This document shows positions 1 through 31,001 of a DNA stretch of 64,000 nucleotides, one piece after another. Both the position numbers and the translations under genes were made by a program. The stretch comes from Escherichia phage KKE7M, in the sequence record PQ356295.1. One strand, 5' to 3'. The stretch's first letter is position 1; every line of letters starts with the position of its first letter. The notes beneath the pieces are model-generated. The model was not told where the DNA came from. It saw only the letters and a program-made list of their open reading frames with translations, and searched no databases.

Positions 1-14
1 CACAAGAAAAAGTA

Positions 15-43
15 TTGACAGTCTCTGAAAAACTTGATAAAGT
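15..43 (+). promoter_or_regulatory. sigma70-like promoter (TTGACA-17 nt-TAAAGT)
   Basis: TTGACA at 15-20, 17-nt spacer, TAAAGT at 38-43, about 55 nt upstream of first ORF. Confidence 0.45.
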
Positions 44-99
44 ATCCTCTGATAATTAATCTATCATAAACCCCCTCAAGGGGGTTATTAGGAGGAGAT

Positions 100-528
100 A
101 TGTTACCAGTACCTGTAATATTTGTAGAAAAAGCCTACTACTCTTTAGAACAAAACTGTAAAAGAGCTAAAAATTTTATTGAAAGTTTAGCAGAACAACG
201 TTACACTGTATCTAAAAAGGGATGGTTTAGAAATTCACAATATTTAGTCAACCCTTTCGGAGAAGTTCGTGTGTTGTACGGCAACACAGAAAACATCTTA
301 GAAAGAATGTTAGAACTAGATAGGATCTCCTCCTGTGATTATCAACTGTTGAAATTTTACGATGTGTCAGAAAACATTAAAAACTTTCTTGACGATTTGT
401 CTAAACGAAAAACAGAAGAAGATACAATACCAGTATCTATGGAAGAATTAACGTTCTTAAGAGATATTATGGTTTTTGAAGAAAACCCTGAAATTACAAA
501 AGAGGAGATTTTAAGTAGTGGCAAATAA
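100..528 (+). CDS. hypothetical protein (142 aa)
   Basis: ORF with AGGAGG RBS 6 nt upstream of ATG; no recognisable motif. Confidence 0.6.
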   Translation: MLPVPVIFVEKAYYSLEQNCKRAKNFIESLAEQRYTVSKKGWFRNSQYLVNPFGEVRVLYGNTENILERMLELDRISSCDYQLLKFYDVSENIKNFLDDLSKRKTEEDTIPVSMEELTFLRDIMVFEENPEITKEEILSSGK

Positions 529-1027
529 GTATGATCGTCCACCAACTGATTACTATCCTACTCCACAAAAATGTATAAATGCATTATTTAGTGTAATAGA
601 TTTTAATAACCTTAAAGAAGAAGGTTTTATTTTTGCAGAACCGTGTAAAGGCGCTGCTGCTGCAATTTATCAACATTTTCCAGAAGGATCAGAATATTGT
701 GAGTTAGAAGAAGGGAAGGATTATTTTAACCACGAATGGCATACTAAGCCGGATATTATAATCACAAATCCACCATTCAGACTTGCACTTGAGTTCTTGC
801 AAAAGAGCTTAAAAGAAGCAGACGTTTGCATATACTTGTTGCGTCTTGGGTTCCTAGAGTCTATTAAACGAAGGGAATTCCATAAACAGAATCCACCAAC
901 AAATTTGATTGTTCTCTCTGAACGACCATCTTTTGTTGCAGGTGGCACTGACAAGACAGCATATGCTTGGTACGTCTACGACCCAAAAAACAGGCTGGGT
1001 TTAACTCAACCTTTCTATTTTGTTTAA
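518..1027 (+). CDS. putative phage DNA N6-adenine methyltransferase (small Dam-like)
   Basis: GTG start overlapping upstream stop with GAGGAG RBS; DYYPTP near N-terminus and IIITNPPF (motif IV-like NPPF) preceded by EPCKGAAAA. Confidence 0.5.
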   Translation: MANKYDRPPTDYYPTPQKCINALFSVIDFNNLKEEGFIFAEPCKGAAAAIYQHFPEGSEYCELEEGKDYFNHEWHTKPDIIITNPPFRLALEFLQKSLKEADVCIYLLRLGFLESIKRREFHKQNPPTNLIVLSERPSFVAGGTDKTAYAWYVYDPKNRLGLTQPFYFV

Positions 1028-1040
1028 GAGGAGCATTTTT

Positions 1041-1271
1041 ATGACCGAGAAATTTATTGTTACTATGGAACTCACCTTTGATGAAGAAGATTTTGATCTT
1101 CACGTATCAACTAAAGCAGATAACATTCACACAACACAGAGTGTTGCAATCGCTATGTTCTTTAAACAAGCAATTGCAAAACAAGCTGAAGTGTGTGCTG
1201 GTTTAGCTGTAGAGTATGCAGAAGTTGTCAAGGTTCTTGAAAATGCTCGTAACAACGATTGGGAAGAATAA
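1041..1271 (+). CDS. hypothetical protein (76 aa)
   Basis: ATG 21 nt inside listed ORF, preceded by AGAGGAG RBS. Confidence 0.55.
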   Translation: MTEKFIVTMELTFDEEDFDLHVSTKADNIHTTQSVAIAMFFKQAIAKQAEVCAGLAVEYAEVVKVLENARNNDWEE

Positions 1272-1474
1272 TGGCATACAATTACTATCTGGTATATTTT
1301 AACGAAACTAAGAAAAAAGACACAGGGACTAATGTTTATGCGGAATCCGAAGAACACGCAAAAGCTATTGGTTCAGTGCTTCTTTCTAGAATAGCAGGTG
1401 AAGAAATTCCTGTAGAAGCTATCTTTGCAGAAGTTGATCCTGGTATTCAAGAAGATGATATTACCACTACTTAA
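1271..1474 (+). CDS. hypothetical protein (67 aa)
   Basis: ATG overlapping upstream stop (TAATGG); coupled translation. Confidence 0.5.
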   Translation: MAYNYYLVYFNETKKKDTGTNVYAESEEHAKAIGSVLLSRIAGEEIPVEAIFAEVDPGIQEDDITTT

Positions 1475-1531
1475 CTGTTGACTTTAACGTTAAGGTAGTG
1501 CATACTTCCTGTAACAGAACAGGAGGGTATT

Positions 1532-2194
1532 ATGAAGTTTGTACTGTATCATCGACTTTCTAAGAAGAAACAACAAGGCAACCAGTATGGTATAGAATCA
1601 CAGGAAGCAGATATCCAACGCTTCCTGGATTCACAAGAAAATTATACTATTGTAGGTAGCTTTGCAGAGTTTTATTCTGGTAAAGGCGATTGGAAGCAAC
1701 GTAGAGAGCTTGTAAAAGCTGTTAATCTTTGCAAAGAAACAGGTGCTACACTTGTTGTTGCTAAGGTTGACCGTCTTGGACGTAACACAGCTTCTGTTGC
1801 AACCTTGTTAGAGATGATTAATGTACGAATAGCAACGATGCCCTCCGCTGAAAATATGATAATAAATATTTTAGCAGTTCTGGCAGAAGAAGAGGCTCGT
1901 GCAATATCGGATCGTGTTAAGAAGAGCCTTAAGGTAGCAAAAGCGAAGGGAACGCTTCTTGGTGCAGCAAACCCTAAATACAAAAGAACAGATTATACGA
2001 AAACGGAAGAAGCAAAACGCTCAAAAGAGTTTGCGCTTTCTTTAAAAGATTCTTTAGTTGCATACAGGGCTTGTAAAACGCCATATATGACGATTGCAAA
2101 GCATCTGAATGAATCAGGAAAGAGAACTATTCGTGGGAGTTTGTTCGATGCCAAAGCGGTACAACGTCTTTGTGCAAAATTGAATATTAAATAA
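1532..2194 (+). CDS. small serine recombinase (resolvase/invertase family)
   Basis: N-terminal YHRLSKKKQ with candidate catalytic Ser, VVAKVDRLGRN resolvase core motif, C-terminal HTH-like segment; AGGAGG RBS. Confidence 0.75.
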   Translation: MKFVLYHRLSKKKQQGNQYGIESQEADIQRFLDSQENYTIVGSFAEFYSGKGDWKQRRELVKAVNLCKETGATLVVAKVDRLGRNTASVATLLEMINVRIATMPSAENMIINILAVLAEEEARAISDRVKKSLKVAKAKGTLLGAANPKYKRTDYTKTEEAKRSKEFALSLKDSLVAYRACKTPYMTIAKHLNESGKRTIRGSLFDAKAVQRLCAKLNIK

Positions 2195-2203
2195 GGAGGA
2201 AAC

Positions 2204-2407
2204 ATGGCAGTTCAATCTTTTGAGGAGACTGTTAAAAAACAATTCCTATCGAAGCGAGCGATGGTTGAATTTTTGCATTTTCTCGAAGTAGATAGGGTAC
2301 TTATTGAGACTACACCAGATGGTAACTGGCAAGTCTCGTATATTGCCACCAGGCATATCGTAGACAGTACGAAAGAAGAAATTTCGGAAGTTACGGTTGC
2401 TAGTTAA
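2204..2407 (+). CDS. hypothetical protein (67 aa)
   Basis: AAGGAGG RBS 5 nt upstream. Confidence 0.55.
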   Translation: MAVQSFEETVKKQFLSKRAMVEFLHFLEVDRVLIETTPDGNWQVSYIATRHIVDSTKEEISEVTVAS

Positions 2408-2418
2408 AGGAGTTAAAT

Positions 2419-2991
2419 ATGCGTTTAGCTTTTAACGGGAAGATAAGCACAGCAAACATATTATCAGCAATAGGATTATTAGGTAAAAAATTCACACCTT
2501 TCAGTTTACCCGTTTGTGTAGATTTTGATCATGTATTTGATATTAATAATCCTTCACGTTGTATCGCCAGAAGTAATATTGATAACCCAAGTGAAAATCT
2601 GTTTTATATTACTAAACCATCCCAAGCAATTTTGAATCAATGGGAAGCAGGTCTGATTAAACCAGGTAAATATTTTGCATTACTACCTTGTAAATCATTG
2701 GCTATAGAGGACAGTCTAAACTATGCAAACAATCTTATTGTTACAGCATTCATTGTCTCAGAAAAAGAAGAAACTGCGGCACTTGCAAACACTGTTAAAT
2801 CTTTGTATGATTCTTTGGGTGTTACTTACACTACATTCGTTTGTGAAGATATTCCTCATTGCGTTGAATTTGTAGTAAATGGTGTAACTGTATGTCGTGT
2901 AGAAACAACGCAAGATGAGGACGTTTTTATTACTGTAGCCGATGTAATATCTGAACCTGTGTTTAGTTACGCAGTTTCATTAACACATTAA
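2419..2991 (+). CDS. hypothetical protein (190 aa)
   Basis: AAAGGAG RBS; no motif recognised. Confidence 0.6.
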   Translation: MRLAFNGKISTANILSAIGLLGKKFTPFSLPVCVDFDHVFDINNPSRCIARSNIDNPSENLFYITKPSQAILNQWEAGLIKPGKYFALLPCKSLAIEDSLNYANNLIVTAFIVSEKEETAALANTVKSLYDSLGVTYTTFVCEDIPHCVEFVVNGVTVCRVETTQDEDVFITVADVISEPVFSYAVSLTH

Positions 2992-3001
2992 GGAGAAGGG
3001 G

Positions 3002-3328
3002 ATGAAAATAACGACAGAACAGGCTTTAATAGACAAAGGAAGGGAAATCTTAGAAAGTCATTTGGAGGATATTCAAAGGACTCCAGGGTATCTCGGCTGG
3101 CGTATACAAGAAGCCGTCGATTTTCTACCCCGAAAAAATAAAGAGATTGAGGTAAGATCTCTATTCCTCCTTGTTAAAGTAGATGGTGACGCTATATACA
3201 AAGATGTAGCGTCTCACATTGAACAAATAGAAGAAAAAGCCTACAAAGAATTTGCAGATCTTGTTGTAGAACATAATATAGAAGGTAAAGTTAATATCTT
3301 TATACTTATGGATTTTGAGGAGAATTGA
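3002..3328 (+). CDS. hypothetical protein (108 aa)
   Basis: AAGGAGAAGGGG RBS directly upstream. Confidence 0.6.
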   Translation: MKITTEQALIDKGREILESHLEDIQRTPGYLGWRIQEAVDFLPRKNKEIEVRSLFLLVKVDGDAIYKDVASHIEQIEEKAYKEFADLVVEHNIEGKVNIFILMDFEEN

Positions 3329-4071
3329 TGCTAGTATATCAAGAAATTAGTGTAAAAGATGATCAAGACCTGTTTATTATTGGTGATTTACATGGTTGCT
3401 TTGATTTGTACCAGAAAGGTGTTAATACTTTAGGTATCCGAGATCAAGATGTTGTTGTATCTTTAGGAGATCTTACAGATCGCGGCAAGCAGAATTTTCG
3501 TTGTACCGTTGAATTCACCAGAAAGCTAAATCGCTATGGTATTCGTGGAAATCACGAAGATATGATGATTAAAGGGTTGCTAGAAGGTGATAGACGATAT
3601 TACGAATGTTGGTTTCAGAACGGAGGCCATACAGTTCTAAATGAGTGTGGAGAAGAAGGTGCAACTGCTCTTGCTTTGATGCTAGAAGACTTACCTGTTG
3701 TACTTGTTGTCAATTATCGTAATATGAAACTAGGCTTTATTCACGGAGGATATCCTTCAGTTTTGGAACATCTGCCAGTGACGGAAGTTTTGCCATTTTG
3801 TTCGAATATGAATAAAGAACAAGTATCTCGATTCACAGAATCTTTAATGTGGGATCGTGATATGATAGATTGCGCCCTTGAAGGGATTCTTCTTCCTAGA
3901 GTTTCAGGAGTAGATTATGTATTTCACGGGCATTCTTATGTTCCTAAACCTGTGATTAGCAGTAATAGGGTATATATGGATACAGGATCTTGCTTCAATG
4001 GTAATTTAACCTTTGCATATTTTGATGATTCAAATACGTTACAATTTTATTCTACTTTAGAGGAGGACTAA
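3328..4071 (+). CDS. calcineurin-like metallophosphoesterase (Ser/Thr phosphatase-like)
   Basis: GDLHG, GDLTDRG and GNHE motifs in canonical order; GAGGAG RBS. Confidence 0.8.
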   Translation: MLVYQEISVKDDQDLFIIGDLHGCFDLYQKGVNTLGIRDQDVVVSLGDLTDRGKQNFRCTVEFTRKLNRYGIRGNHEDMMIKGLLEGDRRYYECWFQNGGHTVLNECGEEGATALALMLEDLPVVLVVNYRNMKLGFIHGGYPSVLEHLPVTEVLPFCSNMNKEQVSRFTESLMWDRDMIDCALEGILLPRVSGVDYVFHGHSYVPKPVISSNRVYMDTGSCFNGNLTFAYFDDSNTLQFYSTLEED

Positions 4072-4391
4072 TGTATAAAGTCACAATTAAAGAGACGGTA
4101 GGGAATATTACGAAAGAAACTACTATTGAAACAGAAGATGTTGAGTTAGTCAAAGAGCTTTTATTTCCAAAACCAGAAATAAAAGATAATGACGAACAGT
4201 TGGATGAAGATAATGAGACAGCAAGGGATAAATGGAAGAAACAACTAGCGGAGATTTGGAAAAAGCCTCAAGTAACGCCTCCATTTGATCCTCGTACACC
4301 TTATAATCCCTGGGAAATTGGAAGCCCTTGGTATACGTATCCTATTACTCCAATTGTTACTCCTAATATTATTCCCAATATTACTTGTTAA
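4071..4391 (+). CDS. hypothetical protein, Pro-rich C-terminus (106 aa)
   Basis: ATG overlaps upstream stop (TAATG); GGAGGA RBS. Confidence 0.55.
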   Translation: MYKVTIKETVGNITKETTIETEDVELVKELLFPKPEIKDNDEQLDEDNETARDKWKKQLAEIWKKPQVTPPFDPRTPYNPWEIGSPWYTYPITPIVTPNIIPNITC

Positions 4392-22386: not shown

Positions 22387-22747
22387 ATCAGACTCCTTTA
22401 TAAATTTACGTTTCATGCTACACATCATACAGCGTCTTTTCATCTATTACAAGAACAGCAACCTAGAAACATCATTAATAGAGGAATTAGTATAGGATTT
22501 CCCTATCAATTATTCTATATATACCTAATATTTTTAACACACCCCTTTGTACATAATATAGACAAATAAATATCTATGCCACAAAAATTTTCCGGTATAC
22601 CCGATTTATTTCGACACACCCCCTTTTCATAAGCGTAAAGCCAATAATATCAATAACTTGCCGCAAAATACTGCTCGCTTGCGAGAGGTGCTTAACGCGA
22701 TTTTTAGCGCCCCCGATTTCTGCCGACCGTCCCCCTCAAATATCAAT

Positions 22748-22776
22748 GAGAATTATTATCATTTGCATTATCATTC
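22748..22776. promoter_or_regulatory. Fur-box-like AT-rich palindrome
   Basis: GAGAATTATTATCATTTGCATTATCATTC resembles GATAATGATAATCATTATC. Confidence 0.3.
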
Positions 22777-22942
22777 AATGACTTATAAGACTTTTGATTA
22801 TTTTCTGAGCAAGAAAGGCACTACTCACAACAAAACAGATAAATTATAAGTAAATCAATGACTTGGCAAGTCTAAACATCTATATACACCTTGCCAAATG
22901 AAATGATCCTGCGTGAAATAGTGCTACCCGTGGAAGATAGCT

Positions 22943-22963
22943 GATAATGATTATCATTTGCAT
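22943..22963. promoter_or_regulatory. Fur-box-like AT-rich palindrome
   Basis: GATAATGATTATCATTTGCAT. Confidence 0.3.
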
Positions 22964-23272
22964 ATTTTCTATACTATAAAACTACCTAAAAATCAAGATA
23001 ATTCTGATTTATTGCGCTTTTAAGAGAATAGGCTCAACAAATAGGCTATAACTATGCTCAACAAATGATAGGTTATATGGGGCAATAGTATGAAAAACCA
23101 TCTATTCAGATATAAATAATTTTGCGCAATAATGGTGATATTTTTCTTGACAAGAAAGATTTCTTTGTGTTCACATAGCGTCCCCTGGAAGGTGGCGCAT
23201 TATGATCATCAATGTCATTGTTCACGATGTTTATTATTGAATAGCTTATTATATGTAGCTTATATTATAGCC

Positions 23273-23456
23273 AATGTTCCAAACATTAGCTAATAATAAC
23301 GCACCGCAACAATGTAAGGGATACAATATACCATGTATATTGTTGCGCTTGCAATTGTTGCAAGCTACATAAGCACAAATAATAACTATCGGTGATGGTT
23401 ATTATGTGGGGTGTGTAGTTGCGTTATTATTAGCCGCCTATGTGTCCGGCATAGGC
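23273..23456. other. nested inverted-repeat (multi-hairpin) structure in gene-free region
   Basis: 15-bp perfect inverted repeat GCTAATAATAACGCA / TGCGTTATTATTAGC encloses three internal hairpins; a fourth GCCTATG / CATAGGC hairpin follows. Confidence 0.5.
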
Positions 23457-23499
23457 TGCTAATGATACGCTTGCTAATTATATTTCTTGTTATAATTAT

Positions 23500-23826
23500 T
23501 GTATGAAATGATTACGGTATGAAATGATTATTTAGGTAATAGATAGTAAGGTAAAGATTAGATCATAAATAGATAGGATATTAATTATTTAGTAATGTTA
23601 CTAACAATTTAATAGTTACTTTGTGCAACAATTCGATAGATTATAGTTATAGTTTTAAAGGTTAGATAGATTATATTTAGCTTGGTAATGATTTATATTA
23701 GTTATTGTTGTTTAATATAAGGTTATCAATGAGATAGTAACAGTAAGTTATAAATAAAGGTGAAATAATTAGCTTTAATTTAGTTAGATAACTTATTATT
23801 TTATAGGTTAGATGGTCATAAGTTAA
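23500..23826. repeat. AT-rich iteron-like short repeats
   Basis: Dense reiteration of TAGATAG / GGTTAGAT / GATTATA words in about 330 bp without ORFs. Confidence 0.35.
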
Positions 23827-23899
23827 GAATGATTATCATTATTGCATTATGCAGTTTATTGCATAAATAATCAGCTATAAATGAGAATGATTATTATTT
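23827..23899. promoter_or_regulatory. pair of Fur-box-like palindromes
   Basis: GAATGATTATCATTATTGCATTATGC and GAGAATGATTATTATTT. Confidence 0.3.
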
Positions 23900-24104
23900 A
23901 AGAGGAAAGACAAGAAAAAGGCTGTTTTTGCCAGATAGTTACATGGAGAAATTAAAAATAAGCGGTCTAAAACACGTTGTAAGCGCCTTATGATCTTCAT
24001 GGTATGGTTGTTCATCTGCTCCTTGATTAGCTCGATACCGCGATCTATTCACTTTTTTCGGTGAACGTTTTTGATAGGTAAAAGCTATCATCTTTATTTA
24101 GGTA

Positions 24105-25315: not shown

Positions 25316-25705
25316 TTAATATTCGTTATAATACATCGCTAATTTTTCATCAAAAGCCGATTGACGATCAGCATACTCCCAAAACATTTCCTGATCCTGT
25401 TGGTCATCTTCATCCATCATGTTAAACTGTGCTACTTCCTGGTAAGTGATCGCCATATTATAACGATAGGTGATCTCTTCTGCGATGTTTTCCGGTAAAG
25501 ATGATTCTACACTGTCTAACAGCATATTTAACATCATTTCAGCCGCTTTTTCATCATTATCAAAGCAGTAAGCAGACCATGCCGCATGATGCTTATTCTT
25601 CATCTTTGCAATCAAGCCATTGACTAAAAAAGGCGCTACGTTGTTAACGATACCCTGTAAAGATTGGAATTTTTCAACGTTAGAAACAGAAACCAGGTTG
25701 CGCAT
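25316..25705 (-). CDS. hypothetical protein (about 129 aa)
   Basis: Start trimmed to ATG downstream of promoter-hairpin cassette; AAAAAGG RBS. Confidence 0.6.
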   Translation of the reverse strand: MRNLVSVSNVEKFQSLQGIVNNVAPFLVNGLIAKMKNKHHAAWSAYCFDNDEKAAEMMLNMLLDSVESSLPENIAEEITYRYNMAITYQEVAQFNMMDEDDQQDQEMFWEYADRQSAFDEKLAMYYNEY

Positions 25706-25728
25706 AGTATTTACCTTTTTGATTACCT

Positions 25729-25787
25729 GGCGGGAAACCATTTCCCGCCTACGTGGTAAATAATACCATACTGGGGATCGGTGTCAA
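25729..25787 (-). promoter_or_regulatory. promoter + leader-hairpin cassette 1 (TTGACA-17-ATTATT then GGCGGGAAA-TGG-TTTCCCGCC)
   Basis: On minus strand: consensus -35, -10, then perfect 9-bp GC-rich hairpin, then RBS and ATG. Confidence 0.6.
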
Positions 25788-25793
25788 TACTTT

Positions 25794-26180
25794 TTATTCA
25801 ATATAAATCAAATTATCTTCACCAATGTAAGCATGCACCGATGGCATTAATTTAGCGGCATTTGTTAGGCGGTTCGCCGTGTTAGTGGTGTATATTTCAG
25901 GGCGATCCCAAAAGCCTACGCCGTGACCGTTACGGGTAAAATGTAAATCATTCCCGATCTGGTTTGCTGTAGCGCCGTCGCTCATTGCCTCAGAGATAGC
26001 TGCAACATTGGCATTACAAAAGGCGGTCACATCGCTGGTAATACGTTTCAGGGCGCTAGAAGAAAAATCATAATCGTCTAGATTCTCAATATATTCCCCA
26101 TTGTGATCCGTCGCTGGTTCGGCAAAAATAAAGGCTTCTTTATAGCCGTTGATCATTTCGTTAATGATTTCTGTTTTCAT
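25794..26180 (-). CDS. hypothetical protein (128 aa)
   Basis: ATGA overlap with upstream gene. Confidence 0.6.
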   Translation of the reverse strand: MKTEIINEMINGYKEAFIFAEPATDHNGEYIENLDDYDFSSSALKRITSDVTAFCNANVAAISEAMSDGATANQIGNDLHFTRNGHGVGFWDRPEIYTTNTANRLTNAAKLMPSVHAYIGEDNLIYIE

Positions 26181-26392
26181 GCTGTACGCTCAACAATAAT
26201 AATGGTTTGCGGGATCTCGTTTTCTACTACTATCAAGGCTTTTTTCTGCGTGATAGATATCTTTACCCGCTTCAGCGTGGCGGTAAAGTCTTTCATTTCG
26301 TCACGTGGTGTTTTAGTGCAATACCAGATCTCAGGTTTACCTATTTGCAAGCCGCGTAAAAATTCCGTTTTACCTGTCTTATTCGTGATCAT
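26177..26392 (-). CDS. hypothetical protein (about 71 aa)
   Basis: ATG with AAGGTGA RBS. Confidence 0.5.
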   Translation of the reverse strand: MITNKTGKTEFLRGLQIGKPEIWYCTKTPRDEMKDFTATLKRVKISITQKKALIVVENEIPQTIIIVERTA

Positions 26393-26402
26393 TTGTTTCA
26401 CC

Positions 26403-26507
26403 TTATCCAATACCGTGGGAAGATAGGATCATGTTAGCCATAGTTGCAATCACTCCAACCGATAACGCCAGGCCCACTATTACAACCGTGAAAATTTTCT
26501 CTAACAT
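26403..26507 (-). CDS. tiny hydrophobic peptide, about 34 aa
   Basis: GAGGGTAGC RBS directly downstream of cassette 2; one TM helix; not in ORF track. Confidence 0.35.
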   Translation of the reverse strand: MLEKIFTVVIVGLALSVGVIATMANMILSSHGIG

Positions 26508-26525
26508 GATGCTACCCTCATTAGT

Positions 26526-26587
26526 GGGCGTTGCCTTATTGCCCCGCCCTATGTGATACATATTATCAGCTTATTAGCCGTTGTCAA
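26526..26587 (-). promoter_or_regulatory. promoter + leader-hairpin cassette 2 (TTGACA-16-TAATAT, variant hairpin)
   Basis: Same architecture as cassette 1; hairpin variant GGGCGGGGCAA...GCAACGCCC. Confidence 0.55.
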
Positions 26588-26692
26588 TTACTTTTTTAAA
26601 CTTCTTTCAAAGAGAAGATCATCGATCTCAGAAACAATAAGCGTTATCAAAGGAATAATAACCGCCGCGCACATCATGGTAAGAATAATCAT
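26588..26692 (-). CDS. tiny hydrophobic peptide, about 34 aa
   Basis: ATG downstream of cassette 3; AGAGAGAA ribosome site; not in ORF track. Confidence 0.35.
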   Translation of the reverse strand: MIILTMMCAAVIIPLITLIVSEIDDLLFERSLKK

Positions 26693-26709
26693 TTTAGTTC
26701 TCTCTATTC

Positions 26710-26769
26710 TGGCGGGAAACCATTTCCCGCCCTACGTGGTACACTTTACCAGATAACCGCATATTGTCA
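26710..26769 (-). promoter_or_regulatory. promoter + leader-hairpin cassette 3 (TTGACA-16-TAAAGT + GGCGGGAAA-TGG-TTTCCCGCC)
   Basis: Identical hairpin to cassette 1. Confidence 0.6.
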
Positions 26770-26771
26770 AA

Positions 26772-26966
26772 CTATTTTTTACAAGGGATCAGTAAACTTC
26801 TCGCTACTGCTTCACGAAAACCTTTACTTTTTATTAGATCTATTGTTGCAGGGTGACAAGTAAAAGCCTTTGACCATTTTTGATCACCTGGTTTACGGGC
26901 GAAAATGTATACTTCCCCGTCAATTTCATCCCAACGAGTATTGCTTGTTAGTTTTTTAAGCGCCAT
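26772..26966 (-). CDS. hypothetical protein (about 64 aa)
   Basis: Start trimmed to ATG preceded by AAAGAGAAATC leader downstream of cassette 4. Confidence 0.5.
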   Translation of the reverse strand: MALKKLTSNTRWDEIDGEVYIFARKPGDQKWSKAFTCHPATIDLIKSKGFREAVARSLLIPCKK

Positions 26967-26987
26967 GATGATTTCTCTTTTAGTTGT

Positions 26988-27045
26988 GAGCGGCACTATT
27001 GCCGCCCTACGCAATACATTCTACCCTATTTATAATTGTTGTCAA
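26988..27045 (-). promoter_or_regulatory. promoter + leader-hairpin cassette 4 (TTGACA-16-TAGAAT + GCGGCA-ATAG-TGCCGC)
   Basis: Hairpin variant retains pairing via compensatory changes. Confidence 0.55.
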
Positions 27046-27046
27046 A

Positions 27047-27316
27047 CTATTTTTTCAAGCTCGCCCAGTCAAAACACGGCGGGATCTCGTTAAAACTTGT
27101 GCCCTGTAAAGCACATAATTTTTTAGCAATAGCCGCCGTGACCTGGCGCTGTACGCGCGGATCTGCTACTGATTGGAGAAAGTAGGCGGCTTTATATGTG
27201 ATCATGCTTTCGCCTGTTTCCTTGTTAACATGATGCACTATTTTAGCCTTATCATCTTTTACCAGGGTGTAACCGGATTCGATGGCCTTGATTGCAACGT
27301 CCAATGATATTTTCAT
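27047..27316 (-). CDS. hypothetical protein (89 aa)
   Basis: AAAGAGATAAATC leader then ATG, directly after hairpin. Confidence 0.6.
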   Translation of the reverse strand: MKISLDVAIKAIESGYTLVKDDKAKIVHHVNKETGESMITYKAAYFLQSVADPRVQRQVTAAIAKKLCALQGTSFNEIPPCFDWASLKK

Positions 27317-27335
27317 GATTTATCTCTTTATTGAT

Positions 27336-27355
27336 GGCGGGGAATACTCCCCGCC
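27336..27355 (-). promoter_or_regulatory. intergenic leader hairpin without own promoter (GGCGGGG-AGTATT-CCCCGCC)
   Basis: GC-rich hairpin between two same-operon genes; no U-tract. Confidence 0.4.
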
Positions 27356-27362
27356 TTATTAA

Positions 27363-27533
27363 TTACTCTTCATCGTCGCCGTTGTAGTATTCAATGCCGT
27401 TTTCATCGGTTACGGTAATATTAACGCCACCGATAGCAACACGATCACGGGCAAACGTCATGGCTTCATTTAAATCTTCAGACCAAAAAATATTGTGACC
27501 TTTGCGCGATACGTAAAACATAGTCGGGATCAT
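27363..27533 (-). CDS. small protein, about 56 aa
   Basis: AGAAGAGAAACAAATC leader then ATG downstream of cassette 6; not in ORF track. Confidence 0.5.
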   Translation of the reverse strand: MIPTMFYVSRKGHNIFWSEDLNEAMTFARDRVAIGGVNITVTDENGIEYYNGDDEE

Positions 27534-27557
27534 GATTTGTTTCTCTTCTGCTGTGAG

Positions 27558-27616
27558 CGGGAAACCATTTCCCGCCCTATGTGATAAACTTTACTACGTT
27601 GTTTGCCTACTGTCAA
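27558..27616 (-). promoter_or_regulatory. promoter + leader-hairpin cassette 6 (TTGACA-17-TAAAGT + GCGGGAAA-TGG-TTTCCCGC)
   Basis: Same architecture. Confidence 0.6.
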
Positions 27617-27617
27617 A

Positions 27618-27902
27618 TTATTTTTTAATGTTTTGCCCTACAAAATTGATCACATCTTTAAGCTGTTTCTCAGTCATGATCGTGCCTGGTAGTTCCTCTT
27701 TGATTTCTTGCGGTAAATAGATATTACCGCGCCAGGTTAATAAACAACCGTTTTGATCTTCGCAGATAGAATAAGAGAAGATCCACTCATTATCATTCTC
27801 AAGCTCCCAAAAGCACAAAAAATCTTCTTTCCCTAAGTTTTCAACGGTTAAGCATAAGCCGCGACGTGCTGCATAGTTGGAAAGTGCTTTTGTGATCTTC
27901 AT
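27618..27902 (-). CDS. hypothetical protein (94 aa)
   Basis: AGAAGAGATAAGAT leader then ATG downstream of cassette 7. Confidence 0.6.
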   Translation of the reverse strand: MKITKALSNYAARRGLCLTVENLGKEDFLCFWELENDNEWIFSYSICEDQNGCLLTWRGNIYLPQEIKEELPGTIMTEKQLKDVINFVGQNIKK

Positions 27903-27921
27903 ATCTTATCTCTTCTGTTAA

Positions 27922-27985
27922 GGCGGGAAAACCATTTCCCCGCTCTATGAGATACAATATACCCCTTATCAGGTGTGCTGTCAAT
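27922..27985 (-). promoter_or_regulatory. promoter + leader-hairpin cassette 7 (TTGACA-17-TATATT + GCGGGGAAA-TGG-TTTTCCCGCC)
   Basis: Same architecture, 1-nt hairpin variant. Confidence 0.6.
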
Positions 27986-28308
27986 CAATAATCTTTAATA
28001 TTTTCCACATTTACAAAAGTGTGTTTATTTTCTAAGTTTTCGCCGTACCATTGCCCAATGTTGATTTCTGCGGTGCGCAACCAGGACATGCCGCGTTCTA
28101 TCTTTTTGCTTGCAATGTCGATCCGGCTTTTACATAGTGCTTTCGCTTGCAATGTAAAAACACTATTGCCCTGTAATGCTTCCAGGTCATCATGTGCAAG
28201 GCGATACTCTTTAAAGCCTGATTCTATCATTTCAATAGCATCAAGTAAACGCGCGCGATGATAGAAAAAATCAGAGTTATCCAAATAAACACCGATCACA
28301 GATTTCAT
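27985..28308 (-). CDS. hypothetical protein (about 107 aa)
   Basis: Start trimmed to ATG with AAAAGGG RBS. Confidence 0.6.
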   Translation of the reverse strand: MKSVIGVYLDNSDFFYHRARLLDAIEMIESGFKEYRLAHDDLEALQGNSVFTLQAKALCKSRIDIASKKIERGMSWLRTAEINIGQWYGENLENKHTFVNVENIKDY

Positions 28309-28329
28309 AATTTTACCCTTTTGTTTGCG

Positions 28330-28379
28330 GCCTTTGCCGTTTTCAAGATATAGTTTAAAGCATAACAAAAAATTGTCAA
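28330..28379 (-). promoter_or_regulatory. sigma70-like promoter (TTGACA ... TAAACT), minus strand
   Basis: Consensus -35 with plausible -10 upstream of 28308 start; no GGCGGG hairpin. Confidence 0.4.
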
Positions 28380-28408
28380 GCCTTTAAAGCGTACAACTAT
28401 AAAACCTA

Positions 28409-28528
28409 TTAAAACACAATGTATAACAACATGGCTATAGTAGCAATACAACATAAAGCCATGCTTGTTTTCCTTCCTTCCTCGTATGCTGGATTTATTA
28501 CGCTATATTGTACGGGAATAATTTTCAT
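28409..28528 (-). CDS. tiny hydrophobic peptide, about 39 aa
   Basis: AAGGAAACAGC RBS; not in ORF track. Confidence 0.3.
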   Translation of the reverse strand: MKIIPVQYSVINPAYEEGRKTSMALCCIATIAMLLYIVF

Positions 28529-28537
28529 GCTGTTTCC

Positions 28538-28633
28538 TTAATGTCTTAAAACGTGGTTTACAATAGAAACAAGTATACAGAAGAAAAAAGATCCTGACAA
28601 TAAGATCCCGAAAAATAAATGTAAATAGGGCAT
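28538..28633 (-). CDS. tiny hydrophobic peptide, 31 aa
   Basis: AAGGAGTAAAACC RBS 2 nt after upstream stop; codon-by-codon check gives MPYLHLFFGILLSGSFFFCILVSIVNHVLRH. Confidence 0.35.
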   Translation of the reverse strand: MPYLHLFFGILLSGSFFFCILVSIVNHVLRH

Positions 28634-28637
28634 GGTT

Positions 28638-28940
28638 TTACTCCTTAAAAAAATCATTGACAATTAAACTGATAACGCCCAGCACCAGATCACCAGGTAG
28701 CGCCGCGCTTTCGTTGTTGCTTGTTTGCACTTCCTCACTAGTACCAGCATGATAGATTGCATGGTAAGCAATAGTATAATAACCTTTCGTTATTTCTTTA
28801 AGATTAATGATTAGCACGTTATTTGTTTCATCTTGAAACAATTTAGCGGTGATAGTATTGTTTTCTTTTACACTATCGACTTTTATTGATGGATCATTTA
28901 CACCAGAAAAAAGAAAAAACGTTTTAGCTATGCCGTTCAT
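28638..28940 (-). CDS. hypothetical protein (100 aa)
   Basis: AAAGGAGAAC RBS. Confidence 0.6.
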   Translation of the reverse strand: MNGIAKTFFLFSGVNDPSIKVDSVKENNTITAKLFQDETNNVLIINLKEITKGYYTIAYHAIYHAGTSEEVQTSNNESAALPGDLVLGVISLIVNDFFKE

Positions 28941-28962
28941 GTAGTTCTCCTTTGTTGTGTGT

Positions 28963-28991
28963 ATCTTATAACGTGCTTTCTATGTTGTCAA
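28963..28991 (-). promoter_or_regulatory. sigma70-like promoter (TTGACA-17-TAAGAT), minus strand
   Basis: -35 overlaps stop codon of upstream gene. Confidence 0.45.
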
Positions 28992-29389
28992 TCTTTTATT
29001 TCGGTGCATTTTGCTAGGGTATACGTTGCAAGTGCTGACACTAGTTTTTCATTGTTACGATCTGCGGCTGTACTGTGTACTTTTTGGATACTTTTTAACC
29101 ACGGTGTAAAATTTTGAGTAGTGAGCACACTGGTAATAATTTCACATGGCACGTTTTCATTTAAGCCATTAACAATAGATTTATCTATTTTTGCCGTTAA
29201 TTGTGTAACAGCACCATAAGCGATCATGTGTGAATCCTCCATGATTTCATCGGGGATCGCATTATTAATGATCATGACGTTTTCCATTGCATCAACGGCG
29301 CTTAATTCTGCTACTGTGGAGGATATCGCCGCGTGAGATGTTCCAACCATGCCAAAAGAGATTAAACCAGCGATCAATAATTTTTTCAT
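28988..29389 (-). CDS. putative secreted/periplasmic protein with signal peptide (about 133 aa)
   Basis: MKKLLIAGLISFGMVGTSHA signal-peptide-like N-terminus; GAGGCAAGAA RBS. Confidence 0.6.
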   Translation of the reverse strand: MKKLLIAGLISFGMVGTSHAAISSTVAELSAVDAMENVMIINNAIPDEIMEDSHMIAYGAVTQLTAKIDKSIVNGLNENVPCEIITSVLTTQNFTPWLKSIQKVHSTAADRNNEKLVSALATYTLAKCTEIKD

Positions 29390-29397
29390 TTCTTGCC

Positions 29398-29580
29398 TCA
29401 TATATGTTTTATTGAGATTATATTGTCACTATATACAACGTTTTTCAACGTGTCAATAAAAATTTTATTGTCTTCAATCCCCAGGATCACGCCGCTAGTT
29501 ATAAAGCCATATTGATCACGATATCTGGCGCATAACCTTTGCCCCTGGGCTAGTGCCTTGCTTATTTCGTCTAATTTCAT
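29398..29580 (-). CDS. hypothetical protein (about 60 aa)
   Basis: Internal ATG preceded by CAGGAGC RBS. Confidence 0.5.
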   Translation of the reverse strand: MKLDEISKALAQGQRLCARYRDQYGFITSGVILGIEDNKIFIDTLKNVVYSDNIISIKHI

Positions 29581-29667
29581 TTTTAAAGCTCCTGTAAAGC
29601 CGTCTAACGTTGATTTATAGGCTTGCCCTGGCGTTACCATTGCCTATGGGTAACAAGCCTCTATATA

Positions 29668-29700
29668 AGCTAAAAGGGCGCTTATTGCGCCCTTTTTGTT
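29668..29700. terminator. bidirectional rho-independent terminator
   Basis: AGGGCGC-TTATT-GCGCCCT hairpin flanked by A-run and T-run. Confidence 0.55.
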
Positions 29701-29836
29701 ATTCGTTCCAGTGTCTTTTTGTGCTGCGATCTCTTTTTGTTTTGTTCCGCTTATCGCCTTTCTTGGTAATCTCTTCGTTCCAATTTTTACGCGCCTTGCT
29801 GCGGTTGAATTTTTCGATCTGCTGTGATGCGTTCAT
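29699..29836 (-). CDS. small highly basic protein, about 45 aa
   Basis: AAGAGGAAAAAAC RBS; K/R-rich; not in ORF track. Confidence 0.4.
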   Translation of the reverse strand: MNASQQIEKFNRSKARKNWNEEITKKGDKRNKTKRDRSTKRHWNE

Positions 29837-29851
29837 GTTTTTTCCTCTTAA

Positions 29852-30211: not shown

Positions 30212-30231
30212 AATCTTATCTCTTTATTGAT

Positions 30232-30290
30232 GGCGGGAAACCATTTCCCGCCGTTGTTGTTACTTTACTTATAAATGATGCTACTGTCAA
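30232..30290 (-). promoter_or_regulatory. promoter + leader-hairpin cassette 8 (TTGACA-17-TAAAGT + GGCGGGAAA-TGG-TTTCCCGCC)
   Basis: Identical hairpin. Confidence 0.6.
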
Positions 30291-30297
30291 GCGAATA

Positions 30298-30468: not shown

Positions 30469-30491
30469 GATGTTTCCTCTTCTCTTTGTTA

Positions 30492-30554: not shown

Positions 30555-30572
30555 GGCCATCTAAAAATAAAT

Positions 30573-30914: not shown

Positions 30915-30939
30915 GGTGTTTTCTCCTTTTGTGTATTCT

Positions 30940-30994: not shown

Positions 30995-31001
30995 ATTATT
31001 T

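What the first reader, a model, noticed from the sequence alone, without database searches (positions are those of the whole stretch)
1532..2194. Small serine recombinase in an apparently lytic gene block
A 220-aa resolvase/invertase-type serine recombinase with a C-terminal HTH sits among early-type genes, with no adjacent inverted repeats or attachment-site-like sequence recognised. In phages such enzymes usually drive programmed inversions (host-range switches) or resolution of replication dimers. Its target site may lie elsewhere in the genome.
Basis: partly seen in the sequence, partly recalled or inferred. Interest (0 to 1): 0.5.

Follow-up and report, generated by a model that had tools for sequence, protein, structure and literature searches.

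The report
Orphan serine recombinase of phi92-like phages
The ORF is a real, intact small serine recombinase, already annotated as phi92 gp053; it is conserved in a whole subfamily of strictly lytic coliphages, is not a classical DNA invertase, and its DNA target remains unknown.

Summary
Window 1532-2194 (+) encodes a 220-aa serine recombinase (Pfam Resolvase, E=8e-22) with the catalytic residues intact (Y6, R8, S10, R57, D80-R81, R84, E121, R128). The window comes from a phi92-like coliphage (Justusliebigvirus). The protein is phi92 gp053, 100% identical in at least 55 public genomes, several annotated "DNA invertase/resolvase". The finding is therefore already known as an annotation; I found no experiments.

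New here:
- The C-terminal domain is a truncated "Recombinase" domain of the large-serine-integrase lineage, not the HTH_7 of resolvases/invertases.
- The gene is the best-conserved protein of its block, and relatives occur throughout Stephanstirmvirinae but not in PVP-SE1/4MG.
- The invertase reading is not supported. There are no flanking inverted repeats. A complete phi92 genome has essentially only terminator hairpins as inverted-repeat pairs. Close relatives show no orientation variant in window 1-25 kb and 40-64 kb, and phi92 is collinear throughout.
- No prophage or plasmid copy occurs in 5,426 E. coli genomes.
- These phages have 343-bp direct terminal repeats, which lie in this window (22693-23034).

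Best guess, at low confidence: a trans-acting resolution- or cyclisation-type recombinase acting on phage DNA.

The parts
1532..2194 (+). Serine recombinase CDS (220 aa plus stop), identical to phi92 gp053
   Evidence: ORF list. Pfam PF00239, 8.4e-22. 100% amino-acid identity in at least 55 phage records. RefSeq annotation 'DNA invertase / putative recombinase, resolvase family'.
1532..1954 (+). Catalytic domain plus E-helix (residues 1-141). The nucleophile Ser10 is codon 1559-1561. Other key residues are R8, R57, D80, R81, R84, E121 and R128.
   Evidence: Family alignment A1: these residues are invariant or at least 90% conserved. AF2 secondary structure, with the E-helix at residues 108-138. 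Foldseek: Sin catalytic domain, target-normalised TM-score 0.70-0.75. Pairwise alignment to gamma-delta resolvase.
1955..2014 (+). Flexible linker (residues 142-161)
   Evidence: This is the lowest-confidence stretch of the model (10-residue block means 70 and 56) and has no regular secondary structure.
2015..2191 (+). C-terminal four-helix DNA-binding domain (residues 162-220). It is a truncated 'Recombinase' domain (PF07508-like, motif IAxxLNxxGxxTxxG...VxRL).
   Evidence: 19 of 23 family C-termini hit PF07508 and only 1 hits HTH_7. The best natural PDB hit is the SPbeta large serine recombinase, residues 206-244. This domain is 60% identical in Klebsiella phage 05F01, where the catalytic domain is only 33% identical.
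1478..1506 (+). Sigma-70-like promoter TTGACT-17 nt-CATACT upstream of the gene
   Evidence: Pattern scan. The hit alone is not above chance (7 found, 4.6 expected). However, both hexamers are conserved in three of the five orthologous intergenic regions aligned, the 87%, 78% and 72% orthologues, while the rest of the spacer has diverged.
1521..1527 (+). Shine-Dalgarno sequence AGGAGGG
   Evidence: Read from the sequence. Partly conserved in alignment A2: AGGAG in four of the six sequences, AGGAGGG in three.

Best explanation
The gene encodes a catalytically competent small serine recombinase with an N-terminal resolvase-type catalytic domain, an E-helix and a shortened recombinase-domain DNA binder. 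It has what looks like its own host-type promoter, so it is probably made early. It is a vertically inherited gene found throughout the strictly lytic Stephanstirmvirinae, which have genomes of 145-150 kb with 343-bp direct terminal repeats. It acts in trans on a site that is not next to the gene. The most likely reaction is deletion/resolution between directly repeated copies of one phage site. Those copies could be the same site in successive genome units of replicating multimers, or in the two ends of the infecting DNA. The outcome would be to monomerise or circularise replicative DNA. Inversion of a phage segment is unlikely. What is shown: identity, an intact active site, purifying selection, a subfamily-wide distribution, retention of the DNA-binding domain, absence of inverted-repeat pairs and of orientation variants, and absence of prophage copies. 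What is inferred: the reaction type, the substrate and the benefit to the phage.
For: The catalytic constellation is intact and conserved down to 31% identity. The fold is confirmed. It is the best-conserved protein of its block: 87/78/72/55/50% identity where neighbours drop to 30-86% or disappear, and its nucleotide divergence resembles that of its neighbours, so it is vertically inherited under purifying selection. It is found in 161 phage records, and its taxon counts closely match those of a Stephanstirmvirinae-specific non-coding element. In Klebsiella phage 05F01 the syntenic gene keeps the DNA-binding domain (60% identity) but has a different catalytic module (33%, different indels). 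Both catalysis and this DNA specificity therefore appear to be selected. The nearest non-phage full-length relatives (34-36%) sit on 6-35 kb plasmids, where I infer that a lone recombinase of this size acts as the multimer resolvase. No inverted-repeat pair exists on which an invertase could act. No orientation variants were seen. The only long direct repeats on virion DNA are the DTRs.
Against: No res-like array of dyads lies next to the gene, and in the Phapecoctavirus-like orthologue the upstream gap is only 10 bp. Linear DTR phages do not obviously need multimer resolution. Seunaviruses (PVP-SE1, 4MG), which share the conserved ori-like non-coding region and are repeatedly cited as homologues in the phi92 annotation, lack the gene. 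One Phapecoctavirus record (Schickermooser) has a copy with several frameshifts, so the gene may be dispensable, unless these are sequencing errors. The one palindrome cluster that looked res-like (35181-35294) also occurs in phages without the recombinase. No target site was found.
Confidence: 0.33

Rival explanations
1. It is a DNA invertase that flips a segment of the phage genome, for example as a host-range or promoter switch, as Gin, Cin, Hin and Pin do.
For: Public pipelines label it 'DNA invertase' (PHROG 125). There is a weak NCBIfam similarity to the Mpi master invertase, which acts on distant sites: E=3e-8, but 33.5 bits against a cut-off of 272.
Against: No inverted repeats of 18 bp or more lie near the gene in 85 loci of the family; the few pairs found are sparse and show no consistent relation to the gene. 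In a whole phi92 genome only terminator hairpins form inverted-repeat pairs, apart from one promoter-like pair and one 18-bp chance-level match. The tail-fibre operon is co-oriented with no alternative cassettes. The window is collinear with phi92, and window 1-25 kb and 40-64 kb are collinear in about 55 close genomes. The only inverton-like structure, a 15-bp inverted repeat flanking 116 bp at 23289-23434, has the same orientation in two genera and its stems covary, which points to a folded structure rather than a switch. The C-terminal domain is not HTH_7.
Confidence: 0.04
2. It acts on DNA other than the phage's own. It might rearrange or cut a host chromosomal site, or a resident prophage, satellite or defence locus, as part of host takeover or counter-defence.
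For: No target was found on the phage. The putative host-type promoter suggests early expression. It lies in a block rich in host-manipulation and anti-defence-type genes: methyltransferases, a Ser/Thr phosphatase, a DprA-like protein and Sir2. Conservation of the DNA-binding domain despite a swap of the catalytic module fits a fixed external target.
Against: There is no direct evidence and no known precedent for this in lytic phages. The hosts of recombinase-bearing relatives are very diverse (Escherichia, Klebsiella, Shewanella, Vibrio, Cellulophaga), so a shared host site is not obvious.
Confidence: 0.15
3. It supports a non-lytic persistence state, either as an integrase (small serine recombinases can integrate phages) or as a resolvase that stabilises an episomal carrier form.
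For: In a survey of 'persistent virulent phages' in E. coli isolate assemblies, the cluster formed by Phapecoctavirus and Justusliebigvirus had 19 of 55 BACPHLIP predictions called temperate (10.1101/2024.12.31.630880). Plasmid-borne relatives are at 34-36% identity. From my own knowledge, not tested here: the filamentous phage phiRSM uses a resolvase-like serine recombinase as its integrase.
Against: Window 1-4100 has no match in 5,426 complete E. coli genomes, plasmids included. No bacterial genome among 185k species representatives has a relative above about 40% identity, and none is enterobacterial. The same preprint found no partition or replication genes, no similarity to complete assemblies, and the largest number of persistent phages in Vequintavirinae; the two Vequintavirinae genomes I checked (PVP-SE1, 4MG) lack the gene.
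Confidence: 0.12
4. It has a role other than strand exchange between two sites. It might act as a site-specific DNA-binding regulator, or as a nicking or topoisomerase-like enzyme at a single structured site such as the conserved dyad-rich element near the right genome end.
For: A single-copy, dyad-rich element (window about 23289-23466) is the best-conserved non-coding block of the terminal region. It is found in 132 records whose taxon counts closely match those of the recombinase-bearing Stephanstirmvirinae (Escherichia 106, Campylobacter 5, Justusliebigvirus 3, Phapecoctavirus 3 in both; Klebsiella 7 versus 10) (versus 40).
Against: The co-occurrence may simply reflect shared ancestry. The stems of the element covary, which points to a folded RNA or ssDNA rather than a protein-bound palindrome. 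Conservation of the full catalytic constellation argues for covalent chemistry rather than mere binding.
Confidence: 0.1
5. It is a dispensable passenger: a domesticated or decaying mobile-element gene with no role in the phage life cycle.
For: The copy in phage Schickermooser is frameshifted. PVP-SE1 and 4MG manage without it. Bacterial homologues sit in islands beside tyrosine integrases and restriction-modification genes.
Against: The amino-acid sequence is identical across at least 55 genomes whose flanks differ by 1-6%, and the protein stays identical to alia's although the gene differs by 0.9% in DNA. It is the best-conserved protein of its block down to 50% identity, and it is syntenic. 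Its catalytic residues are invariant.
Confidence: 0.08

Closest known systems
phi92 gp053 (YP_009012384) and its orthologues in Justusliebigvirus and Phapecoctavirus
   Same: The amino-acid sequence is identical (100% in at least 55 records), as are the position and the neighbours.
   Different: Nothing differs; this is the same gene. Public annotation varies between 'DNA invertase', 'resolvase', 'recombinase family protein' and 'hypothetical protein'. No functional study was found.
Small resolvases: gamma-delta/Tn3 resolvase and Sin
   Same: The catalytic-domain fold and the active-site residues R8, S10, D67/R68/R71 and E-helix equivalents are shared. The size is about 200 aa.
   Different: The catalytic domain has an 8-11 residue insertion after Ser10 and a 10-17 residue deletion before the E-helix. 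The C-terminal domain is PF07508-like, not HTH_7. No res site is adjacent to the gene.
DNA invertases: Gin (Mu), Cin (P1), Hin and Pin
   Same: The superfamily, the size and the phage-borne location are shared.
   Different: There is no adjacent invertible segment, no inverted-repeat crossover pair anywhere in the genome and no orientation polymorphism. The DNA-binding domain is different.
Large serine recombinases (Bxb1, PhiC31, SPbeta SprA, TP901-1 integrases)
   Same: Bxb1 is the best full-length Foldseek hit. The C-terminal helices match the start of their recombinase domain. The N-terminal motif is followed by a 'G(I/L)(E/D)(S/A)Q' element like theirs; this comparison is read from alignment A1 and set against my own knowledge of these enzymes, and was not tested here.
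   Different: The protein has only 220 aa. It lacks most of the recombinase domain, the zinc ribbon and the coiled coil that control att-site choice and directionality. There is no prophage state.
Mpi-family master invertase (Bacteroides) and YneB-like resolvases
   Same: Length and overall architecture are similar, and the weak NCBIfam hits run end to end. Mpi is a precedent for a small serine recombinase acting on distant sites (my own knowledge).
   Different: The scores are far below the family cut-offs (33.5 versus 272 and 29.8 versus 175). No inverted-repeat-flanked promoters exist in the phage.
Cre/loxP of phage P1 (functional analogy only)
   Same: It is a phage site-specific recombinase that cyclises terminally redundant infecting DNA and resolves multimers. 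This is the kind of reaction proposed here.
   Different: Cre is a tyrosine recombinase of a temperate plasmid-prophage. No lox-like site has been identified here.

Membership tests
Serine recombinase superfamily (PF00239 catalytic domain) | N-terminal catalytic domain matching the family profile above its curated threshold | tested here: met
   78.3 bits against a cut-off of 23.3, residues 4-141. The fold is confirmed by AF2 and Foldseek.
Serine recombinase superfamily (PF00239 catalytic domain) | Nucleophilic serine in a Y-x-R-x-S motif, plus the conserved Arg/Asp/Glu residues | tested here: met
   Y6, R8, S10, R57, D80, R81, R84, E121 and R128 are invariant or at least 90% conserved in 32 sequences. 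S10, R8 and D80-R81-R84 align to S10, R8 and D67-R68-R71 of gamma-delta resolvase.
Serine recombinase superfamily (PF00239 catalytic domain) | Demonstrated DNA cleavage and strand exchange | not testable with these tools
   This needs purified protein or genetics. No experimental paper was found.
Classical small resolvase/invertase group (Tn3, gamma-delta, Hin, Gin) | C-terminal HTH_7-type DNA-binding domain | tested here: not met
   19 of 23 family C-termini hit PF07508 Recombinase and only 1 hits HTH_7. The full protein has no HTH_7 hit at E<=1.
Classical small resolvase/invertase group (Tn3, gamma-delta, Hin, Gin) | Cognate site next to the gene: a res array, or an invertible segment flanked by inverted repeats | tested here: not met
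   Upstream, only the promoter hexamers (in three of five orthologues) and, in part, the SD are conserved, and one orthologue has a gap of only 10 bp. No inverted repeats consistently flank the gene in 85 loci.
Phage DNA invertases (Gin/Cin/Pin type) | A pair of inverted crossover sites in the genome, and both orientations seen among isolates | tested here: not met
   The phi92 genome has 10 inverted-repeat pairs of 18 bp or more: eight terminators, one promoter-like pair and one 18-bp chance-level match. The window is collinear with phi92 and, over 1-25 kb and 40-64 kb, with about 55 close genomes. The roughly 85 kb of genome outside the window was checked only in phi92 itself (inverted-repeat scan and gene orientation), not for orientation variants across relatives.
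Phage DNA invertases (Gin/Cin/Pin type) | Fis-dependent recombinational enhancer inside the invertase gene | not tested
   No reliable sequence test is available here.
Large serine recombinases (phage integrases) | Complete recombinase domain, zinc-ribbon domain and coiled coil (typically more than 400 aa) | tested here: not met
   The protein has 220 aa, and the model shows only four short helices after the E-helix. Only the start of PF07508 is matched.
Large serine recombinases (phage integrases) | attP/attB integration, that is, occurrence as a prophage | tested here: not met
   There is no match in 5,426 complete E. coli genomes. No relative above about 40% identity occurs in 185k bacterial species representatives.
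Mpi-family master DNA invertase (NF009949) | Score above the curated equivalog cut-off | tested here: not met
   33.5 bits against 272.
Plasmid/replicon multimer resolvase (functional class) | Single site per replicon, recombined only when directly repeated in a multimer | not testable with these tools
   The only support is indirect: the nearest non-phage relatives are on small plasmids. No site has been identified in the phage.

The most novel reading that the evidence does not exclude
Strictly virulent, DTR-ended myoviruses (Stephanstirmvirinae) carry a trans-acting serine recombinase throughout the subfamily. It would cyclise or monomerise the infecting or replicating genome at a dedicated single-copy site near the genome end. 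The candidate site is the dyad-rich element at window 23289-23466, whose taxon distribution closely matches that of the gene. This would be a Cre/lox-like function performed by a short large-serine-type enzyme in a lytic phage.
Probability: 0.1. Interest if true: 0.6.

Novelty: already known. Interest (0 to 1): 0.27.

Why it matters
The practical point is that this gene makes lifestyle predictors and therapy-safety screens flag phi92-like and phAPEC8-like phages, which are popular therapy candidates, as possibly temperate. A published survey reports 19 of 55 such genomes called 'temperate'. The evidence here supports a strictly lytic lifestyle: there are no prophage or plasmid copies, the zinc ribbon and coiled coil of integrases are absent, and no att-like context exists. 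The biological point is modest but genuine. A catalytically intact site-specific recombinase is conserved across a whole subfamily of virulent phages, with no recognisable site and no known role. Identifying its target could reveal an unappreciated step in how DTR genomes are processed, or a new host-directed activity. It could also supply a compact recombinase/site pair as a tool.

Tried and rejected
1. A res site upstream of the gene. The alignment of six orthologous intergenic regions shows conservation only of the promoter hexamers (in three of five orthologues) and, in part, the SD. The dyad CCTGTaacagaACAGG (1508-1523) is not conserved.

2. An invertase cassette.
- Self-BLAST of 85 family loci found no inverted repeats consistently flanking the gene.
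- A genome-wide inverted-repeat search in complete phi92 found essentially only terminators.

3. Orientation variants. MegaBLAST of the window in three 25-kb pieces against 50,697 phage records, plus a local comparison of the window with phi92, found none. For the mosaic 20-45 kb part, only the phi92 comparison is conclusive.

4. The 21-bp palindromes AAATGAKAATnATTMTCATTT, in the DTR region and as a 113-bp cluster at 35181-35294, as a res-like array. Rejected because the same boxes, in the same layout, occur in PVP-SE1 and 4MG, which lack the recombinase. They also match the Fur 7-1-7 box, and their odd spacing fits a 2-bp crossover poorly.

5. The element at 23289-23434, bounded by a 15-bp inverted repeat, as an inverton. 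Rejected because it has the same orientation in the window, phi92 and tuntematon, and its stems covary.

6. A prophage or phage-plasmid state. There is no match in E. coli genomes, plasmid hits are only distant, and bacterial genomes hold relatives of at most about 40% identity.

7. Recent mobile insertion. Rejected because the nucleotide identity of the gene (99.1%) resembles that of its neighbours and the gene is syntenic in relatives with 50-87% protein identity.

8. Literature. I found only annotation-level remarks. The original phi92 paper (PMC3457257) is not held.

9. Rfam. There are no hits in the window, nor at E<=1 in 34880-35200.

Direct-repeat BLAST of phi92 at strict settings found few pairs, so a single-copy site cannot be found by repeat searching.
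Full report
OBSERVATION. Window 1532-2194 (+) is an ATG-initiated ORF of 220 codons, preceded by the Shine-Dalgarno sequence AGGAGGG (1521-1527). Pfam assigns residues 4-141 to PF00239, the resolvase N-terminal catalytic domain, with E=8.4e-22 and 78.3 bits against a cut-off of 23.3. PHROGs gives phrog_125 'DNA invertase' at 1e-31 and phrog_95 'integrase' at 1.5e-25. The nearest solved sequences are the Sin, Tn3 and gamma-delta resolvases and the Gin/Hin-type invertases, all weak at 1e-5 to 1e-3.

WHERE THE WINDOW COMES FROM. The first 8 kb are 97.6-98.3% identical to many Escherichia phages of the genus Justusliebigvirus (the phi92-like phages, subfamily Stephanstirmvirinae). The protein is 100% identical in at least 55 records and equals phi92 gp053. 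The phi92 record annotates gp053 as 'putative recombinase, resolvase family protein / DNA invertase'. Other records call it DNA invertase, resolvase, recombinase family protein or hypothetical protein. As an annotation, the finding is already public. In the literature I found only passing remarks. One Phapecoctavirus paper guesses a role in keeping 'concatemers as single genome'. Two papers on ESCO5 state that no recombinase is present, although tblastn finds the orthologue in ESCO5. No experiment on this gene was found.

IS IT AN ACTIVE ENZYME? I aligned 32 family members from a 5.8-billion-protein search, reaching down to 31% identity. The following residues are invariant: Q24, E46, G50, R57, A63, D80, R81, L82, R84, E121, R128 and G140. 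Y6, R8 and S10 are at least 90% conserved, the only exception being an N-terminally truncated sequence. In a pairwise alignment, S10/R8 and D80-R81-R84 fall on S10/R8 and D67-R68-R71 of gamma-delta resolvase. The AlphaFold2 model (pLDDT 86.7) shows the beta-alpha catalytic core, a 31-residue E-helix (108-138), a low-confidence linker and a four-helix C-terminal domain. Foldseek returns only serine recombinases among its significant hits. Bxb1 integrase is the best full-length match, and the Sin catalytic domain has a target-normalised TM-score of 0.70-0.75.

THE C-TERMINAL DOMAIN. A profile of the C-terminal 70 residues tells a different story. 19 of 23 members hit Pfam PF07508 'Recombinase' (best 4.7e-8) and only one hits HTH_7. 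In the PDB the best natural match is residues 206-244 of the SPbeta large serine recombinase. The protein is thus a 'short' relative of the large serine recombinases. It keeps only the first helices of their recombinase domain and lacks the zinc ribbon and coiled coil. NCBIfam gives only far sub-threshold end-to-end hits to CcrB, Mpi and YneB.

EVOLUTIONARY STATUS. Orthologues at 87%, 78%, 72%, 55% and 50% identity occupy the same co-oriented block of small genes in contigs of up to 149 kb. Within this block the recombinase is the best-conserved protein, while its neighbours fall to 30-86% identity or become undetectable. Its nucleotide identity to phage alia (99.1%) resembles that of its neighbours (96-99.5%), and the protein stays identical. 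This is the signature of vertical inheritance under strong purifying selection, not of a recently inserted mobile gene. tblastn finds it in 161 phage records:
- Justusliebigvirus, 99-100% identity
- Klebsiella phage FKP3, 78%
- Phapecoctavirus, 55-57%
- more distant copies in phages of Shewanella, Vibrio, Cellulophaga, Microcystis and Arthrobacter

The Seunaviruses PVP-SE1 and 4MG (Vequintavirinae) are not among the hits. Two variants are informative. In phage Schickermooser the first third of the gene carries several frameshifts, which means either a pseudogene or sequencing error. In Klebsiella phage 05F01 the syntenic gene is chimeric. Its C-terminal DNA-binding domain is 60% identical to ours, but its catalytic domain is only 33% identical and has a different indel architecture, of the classical YxRVSTxxQ type. 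Retention of the DNA binder while the catalytic module was exchanged suggests that both the DNA specificity and catalysis are selected.

SEARCH FOR A TARGET NEAR THE GENE. The 57-bp upstream spacer contains a sigma-70-like promoter, TTGACT-17-CATACT, at 1478-1506. The scan hit alone is not above chance, with 7 found against 4.6 expected. However, both hexamers are conserved in the three closest orthologous spacers, and the SD in part, while everything else has diverged. In the Phapecoctavirus-like orthologue the gap is only 10 bp. The downstream gap is 9 bp. There is therefore no res-like array next to the gene. In 85 loci of the wider family, self-BLAST found no inverted repeats of 18 bp or more that consistently flank the gene. 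The few pairs found were terminator hairpins in the two close relatives and sparse pairs in four distant loci.

SEARCH FOR AN INVERTIBLE SEGMENT.
- I assembled the complete phi92 genome from four fetched pieces.
- Genome-wide, only 10 inverted-repeat pairs of 18 bp or more exist. Eight are GC-rich terminator hairpins, one is a pair of promoter-like sequences, and one is an 18-bp match I take to be chance.
- The tail-fibre and tailspike genes gp135-gp153 are all co-oriented, with no alternative C-terminal cassettes.
- The window is collinear with phi92 over its whole length, and every segment of 60 bp or more lies on the same strand.
- Window 1-25000 and 40001-64000 appear as single collinear places in about 55 close genomes. 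Extra places are explained by record ends.
- The 20-45 kb part is mosaic, so the survey of records is uninformative there and only the phi92 comparison counts.
- The 85 kb outside the window was checked only in phi92 itself.

Within these limits, the Gin/Hin-type reading is not supported.

GENOME ENDS. The phi92 record annotates identical 343-bp direct terminal repeats. A 342-bp DTR was determined with PhageTerm for phage BME3, and DTRs are reported for all Stephanstirmvirinae. The DTR maps to window 22693-23034 as a single copy. The window therefore runs across the joined genome ends, as in a circularised assembly. The recombinase lies 19.5 kb from the left end, in the leftward unit gp037-gp106. 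The DTRs are the only long direct repeats on the virion DNA. A resolution-type enzyme could in principle use sites in them to circularise the genome, or use one site per genome unit in concatemers. No such site could be identified.

CANDIDATE SITES EXAMINED AND REJECTED. The window has two long non-coding stretches, about 22.45-23.94 kb and 34.45-35.73 kb.

First candidate: the 21-bp palindrome. AAATGAKAATnATTMTCATTT occurs only in these two stretches, including a 113-bp cluster of four copies at 35181-35294 that superficially resembles a res site. The same boxes occur in the same layout in PVP-SE1 and 4MG, which lack the recombinase. That layout is a promoter, a conserved GC-rich RNA-like stretch, the box or boxes, a second promoter and three tandem AT-rich repeats of about 70 bp. 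The boxes are therefore not specific to the recombinase. They match the Fur 7-1-7 motif, and one DTR copy matches the 19-bp E. coli Fur consensus at 17 of 19 positions.

Second candidate: the terminal dyad-rich element. Window 23289-23434 is bounded by a perfect 15-bp inverted repeat and holds three hairpins. It is the best-conserved block of the terminal region, 81% identical to Phapecoctavirus. Its interior has the same orientation in the window, phi92 and tuntematon, with an alignment score of 40.5 forward against 1.0 reverse. Its stems change in a compensatory way, so it is a folded element and not an inverton. It is single-copy and was found in 132 records. Their taxon counts closely match those of the recombinase-bearing Stephanstirmvirinae: Escherichia 106, Campylobacter 5, Justusliebigvirus 3 and Phapecoctavirus 3 in both searches, but Klebsiella 7 against 10. 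This co-occurrence may simply reflect common descent. I list the element only as a candidate to be tested.

LIFESTYLE. Window 1-4100 has no match in 5,426 complete E. coli genomes, plasmids included. In 185,579 bacterial species representatives the closest relatives are at most about 40% identical. They are mostly alphaproteobacterial and lie in islands beside tyrosine integrases, restriction-modification genes and a large serine recombinase. On plasmids the best full-length relatives (34-36%) sit on replicons of 6-35 kb. I infer, without a test, that a lone recombinase on such a small replicon is the multimer resolvase. A preprint on 'persistent virulent phages' reports that 19 of 55 BACPHLIP predictions in the Phapecoctavirus/Justusliebigvirus cluster were 'temperate'. 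It found no temperate genes and no similarity to complete assemblies, and the largest number of persistent phages was in Vequintavirinae. The two Vequintavirinae genomes I checked lack the gene. I suspect that this recombinase drives the 'temperate' calls, but that is my inference. Nothing supports integration.

MECHANISM. What is shown: an intact serine recombinase that is strongly conserved, probably expressed from its own host-type promoter, has no cognate site beside it, has no invertible substrate in the genome, and is never found as a prophage. What I infer, at confidence about 0.33: it acts in trans on a single phage site and catalyses deletion/resolution between directly repeated copies of that site, in genome multimers or at the two ends, yielding monomeric circular replicative DNA. 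The arguments against this are real. DTR phages have no obvious need for it, PVP-SE1 and 4MG lack it, one copy may be a pseudogene, and no site was found. The rivals, with my confidence in each:
- action on host or competitor DNA (0.15)
- a role in a carrier or episomal state (0.12)
- a single-site nicking or regulatory role (0.10)
- a dispensable passenger (0.08)
- a classical invertase (0.04)

COMPARISON AND NOVELTY. The enzyme works like a member of the serine recombinase superfamily, and it passes every sequence and structure test for membership. It fails the tests for the classical resolvase/invertase group, which requires an HTH_7 domain and an adjacent site. It also fails those for the large serine integrases (domain set, prophage state) and for the Mpi family (score). 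It is best described as a short, recombinase-domain-type serine recombinase, a widespread but uncharacterised group with at least 584 viral and at least 582 bacterial loci. The gene itself is already annotated in public records, so the finding is 'already known'. What remains open is its function. Interest is modest at 0.27. It would rise if a Cre/lox-like cyclisation system or a host-directed activity were demonstrated.

Noticed in passing
window 22693-23034: This stretch equals the 343-bp direct terminal repeat annotated in phi92 (DTR-L and DTR-R are identical) and is present once. The window therefore runs across the joined physical genome ends, as in a circularised or concatemer-type assembly. 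It lies in a 1.5-kb gene-free, AT-rich region (about 22450-23940).
   Followed up: yes
window 22744-22764, 22939-22959, 22990-23010, 23825-23843, 23879-23899 and a cluster at 35181-35294: The 21-bp palindrome AAATGAKAATnATTMTCATTT (core TGAKAATnATTMTCA) matches the Fur 7-1-7 box. It is confined to the terminal non-coding region, including the DTR, and to one 113-bp cluster of four copies; elsewhere in phi92 only chance-level matches occur. In phi92 one DTR copy matches the 19-bp E. coli Fur consensus at 17 of 19 positions. The boxes are also present in PVP-SE1 and 4MG. They could be host Fur or phage regulator operators at the genome ends and at an ori-like region.
   Followed up: partly
window about 34920-35170 (+): A sigma-70-like promoter (TTGACAagcccagggatcgggctTATACT) is followed by a GC-rich stretch of about 90 nt (34964-35052). 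That stretch is conserved at 70-85% DNA identity in 244 records spanning distant large myoviruses (PVP-SE1, 4MG, CR3/CR9, KpS8, CB7, ChuuTotoro, Ro1) and is mostly unannotated. RNAalifold on four sequences gives a closing stem plus three hairpins with two compensatory pairs. There is no Rfam hit even at E<=1. It is a candidate conserved phage ncRNA. A second promoter and another GC-rich stretch follow at about 35090-35165.
   Followed up: partly
window 35314-35534: Three tandem AT-rich repeats of 67-75 bp (AAATTGAACTTTTCATTTT...AAAAACTTTAAATAA) lie just downstream of the palindrome cluster. Three tandem repeats also occupy the equivalent position in PVP-SE1, 4MG and tuntematon. The arrangement is iteron-like and could be a replication origin or regulatory hub.
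   Followed up: partly
window 23289-23466: A dyad-rich structured element lies 255-430 bp inside the right genome end. A perfect 15-bp outer inverted repeat (GCTAATAATAACGCA/TGCGTTATTATTAGC) encloses three hairpins, and a fourth hairpin lies just outside. The block is 81% identical to Phapecoctavirus. The outer stem and the outside hairpin show compensatory changes. The element is single-copy and was found in 132 records, all apparently Stephanstirmvirinae, often near record ends. It could be a pac or ori signal or a structured RNA. Only the 3-nt loop of one hairpin is flipped between genera (GGT versus ACC).
   Followed up: partly
window 25700-34300 (- strand genes): At least eight copies of a regulatory cassette precede small genes in the most mosaic part of the genome: an early-type promoter (TTGACA...TATAGT-like) followed by the stem-loop GGGCGGGAAATGGTTTCCCGCC. 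They resemble the promoter-stem-loop (PeSL) cassettes that mediate modular shuffling in T4-type phages (my own knowledge). Some genes in the corresponding phi92 region are annotated as up to 96% similar to rV5 proteins.
   Followed up: no
L175 808-1479 (Klebsiella phage 05F01, LC483177 129776-130447): The syntenic serine recombinase is a chimera. Its C-terminal DNA-binding domain is 60% identical to the window protein. Its catalytic domain is only 33% identical and has a different indel architecture, with Ser in place of the Asp equivalent to D67 of gamma-delta resolvase.
   Followed up: partly
L174 about 730-1446 (phage Schickermooser, NC_048196): The first third of the orthologue is interrupted by several frameshifts, and only the C-terminal 128 codons are annotated. 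This is either a pseudogene or homopolymer sequencing error.
   Followed up: partly
phage records MG065639, MG065645, MG065656, MG065689: Unannotated records named 'Campylobacter phage' with Campylobacter jejuni as host are 98% identical to this E. coli phi92-like phage over the 8-kb query. They are probably mislabelled or contaminant genomes.
   Followed up: no
L085 3676-5673 (135-kb metagenomic relative): In a relative whose recombinase is 50% identical, a 665-aa tailspike gene (Tail_spike_N plus pectate-lyase beta-helix) sits two genes upstream of the recombinase, inside the early-type block. This is an unusual place for a receptor-binding protein.
   Followed up: no
window 40001-64000 (annotations of relatives): Relatives annotate an intein-containing UvrD/Rep helicase and a split or spliced anaerobic ribonucleotide reductase (NrdD) in this part of the window. 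Presence varies between genomes, with gaps of about 1-1.5 kb.
   Followed up: no
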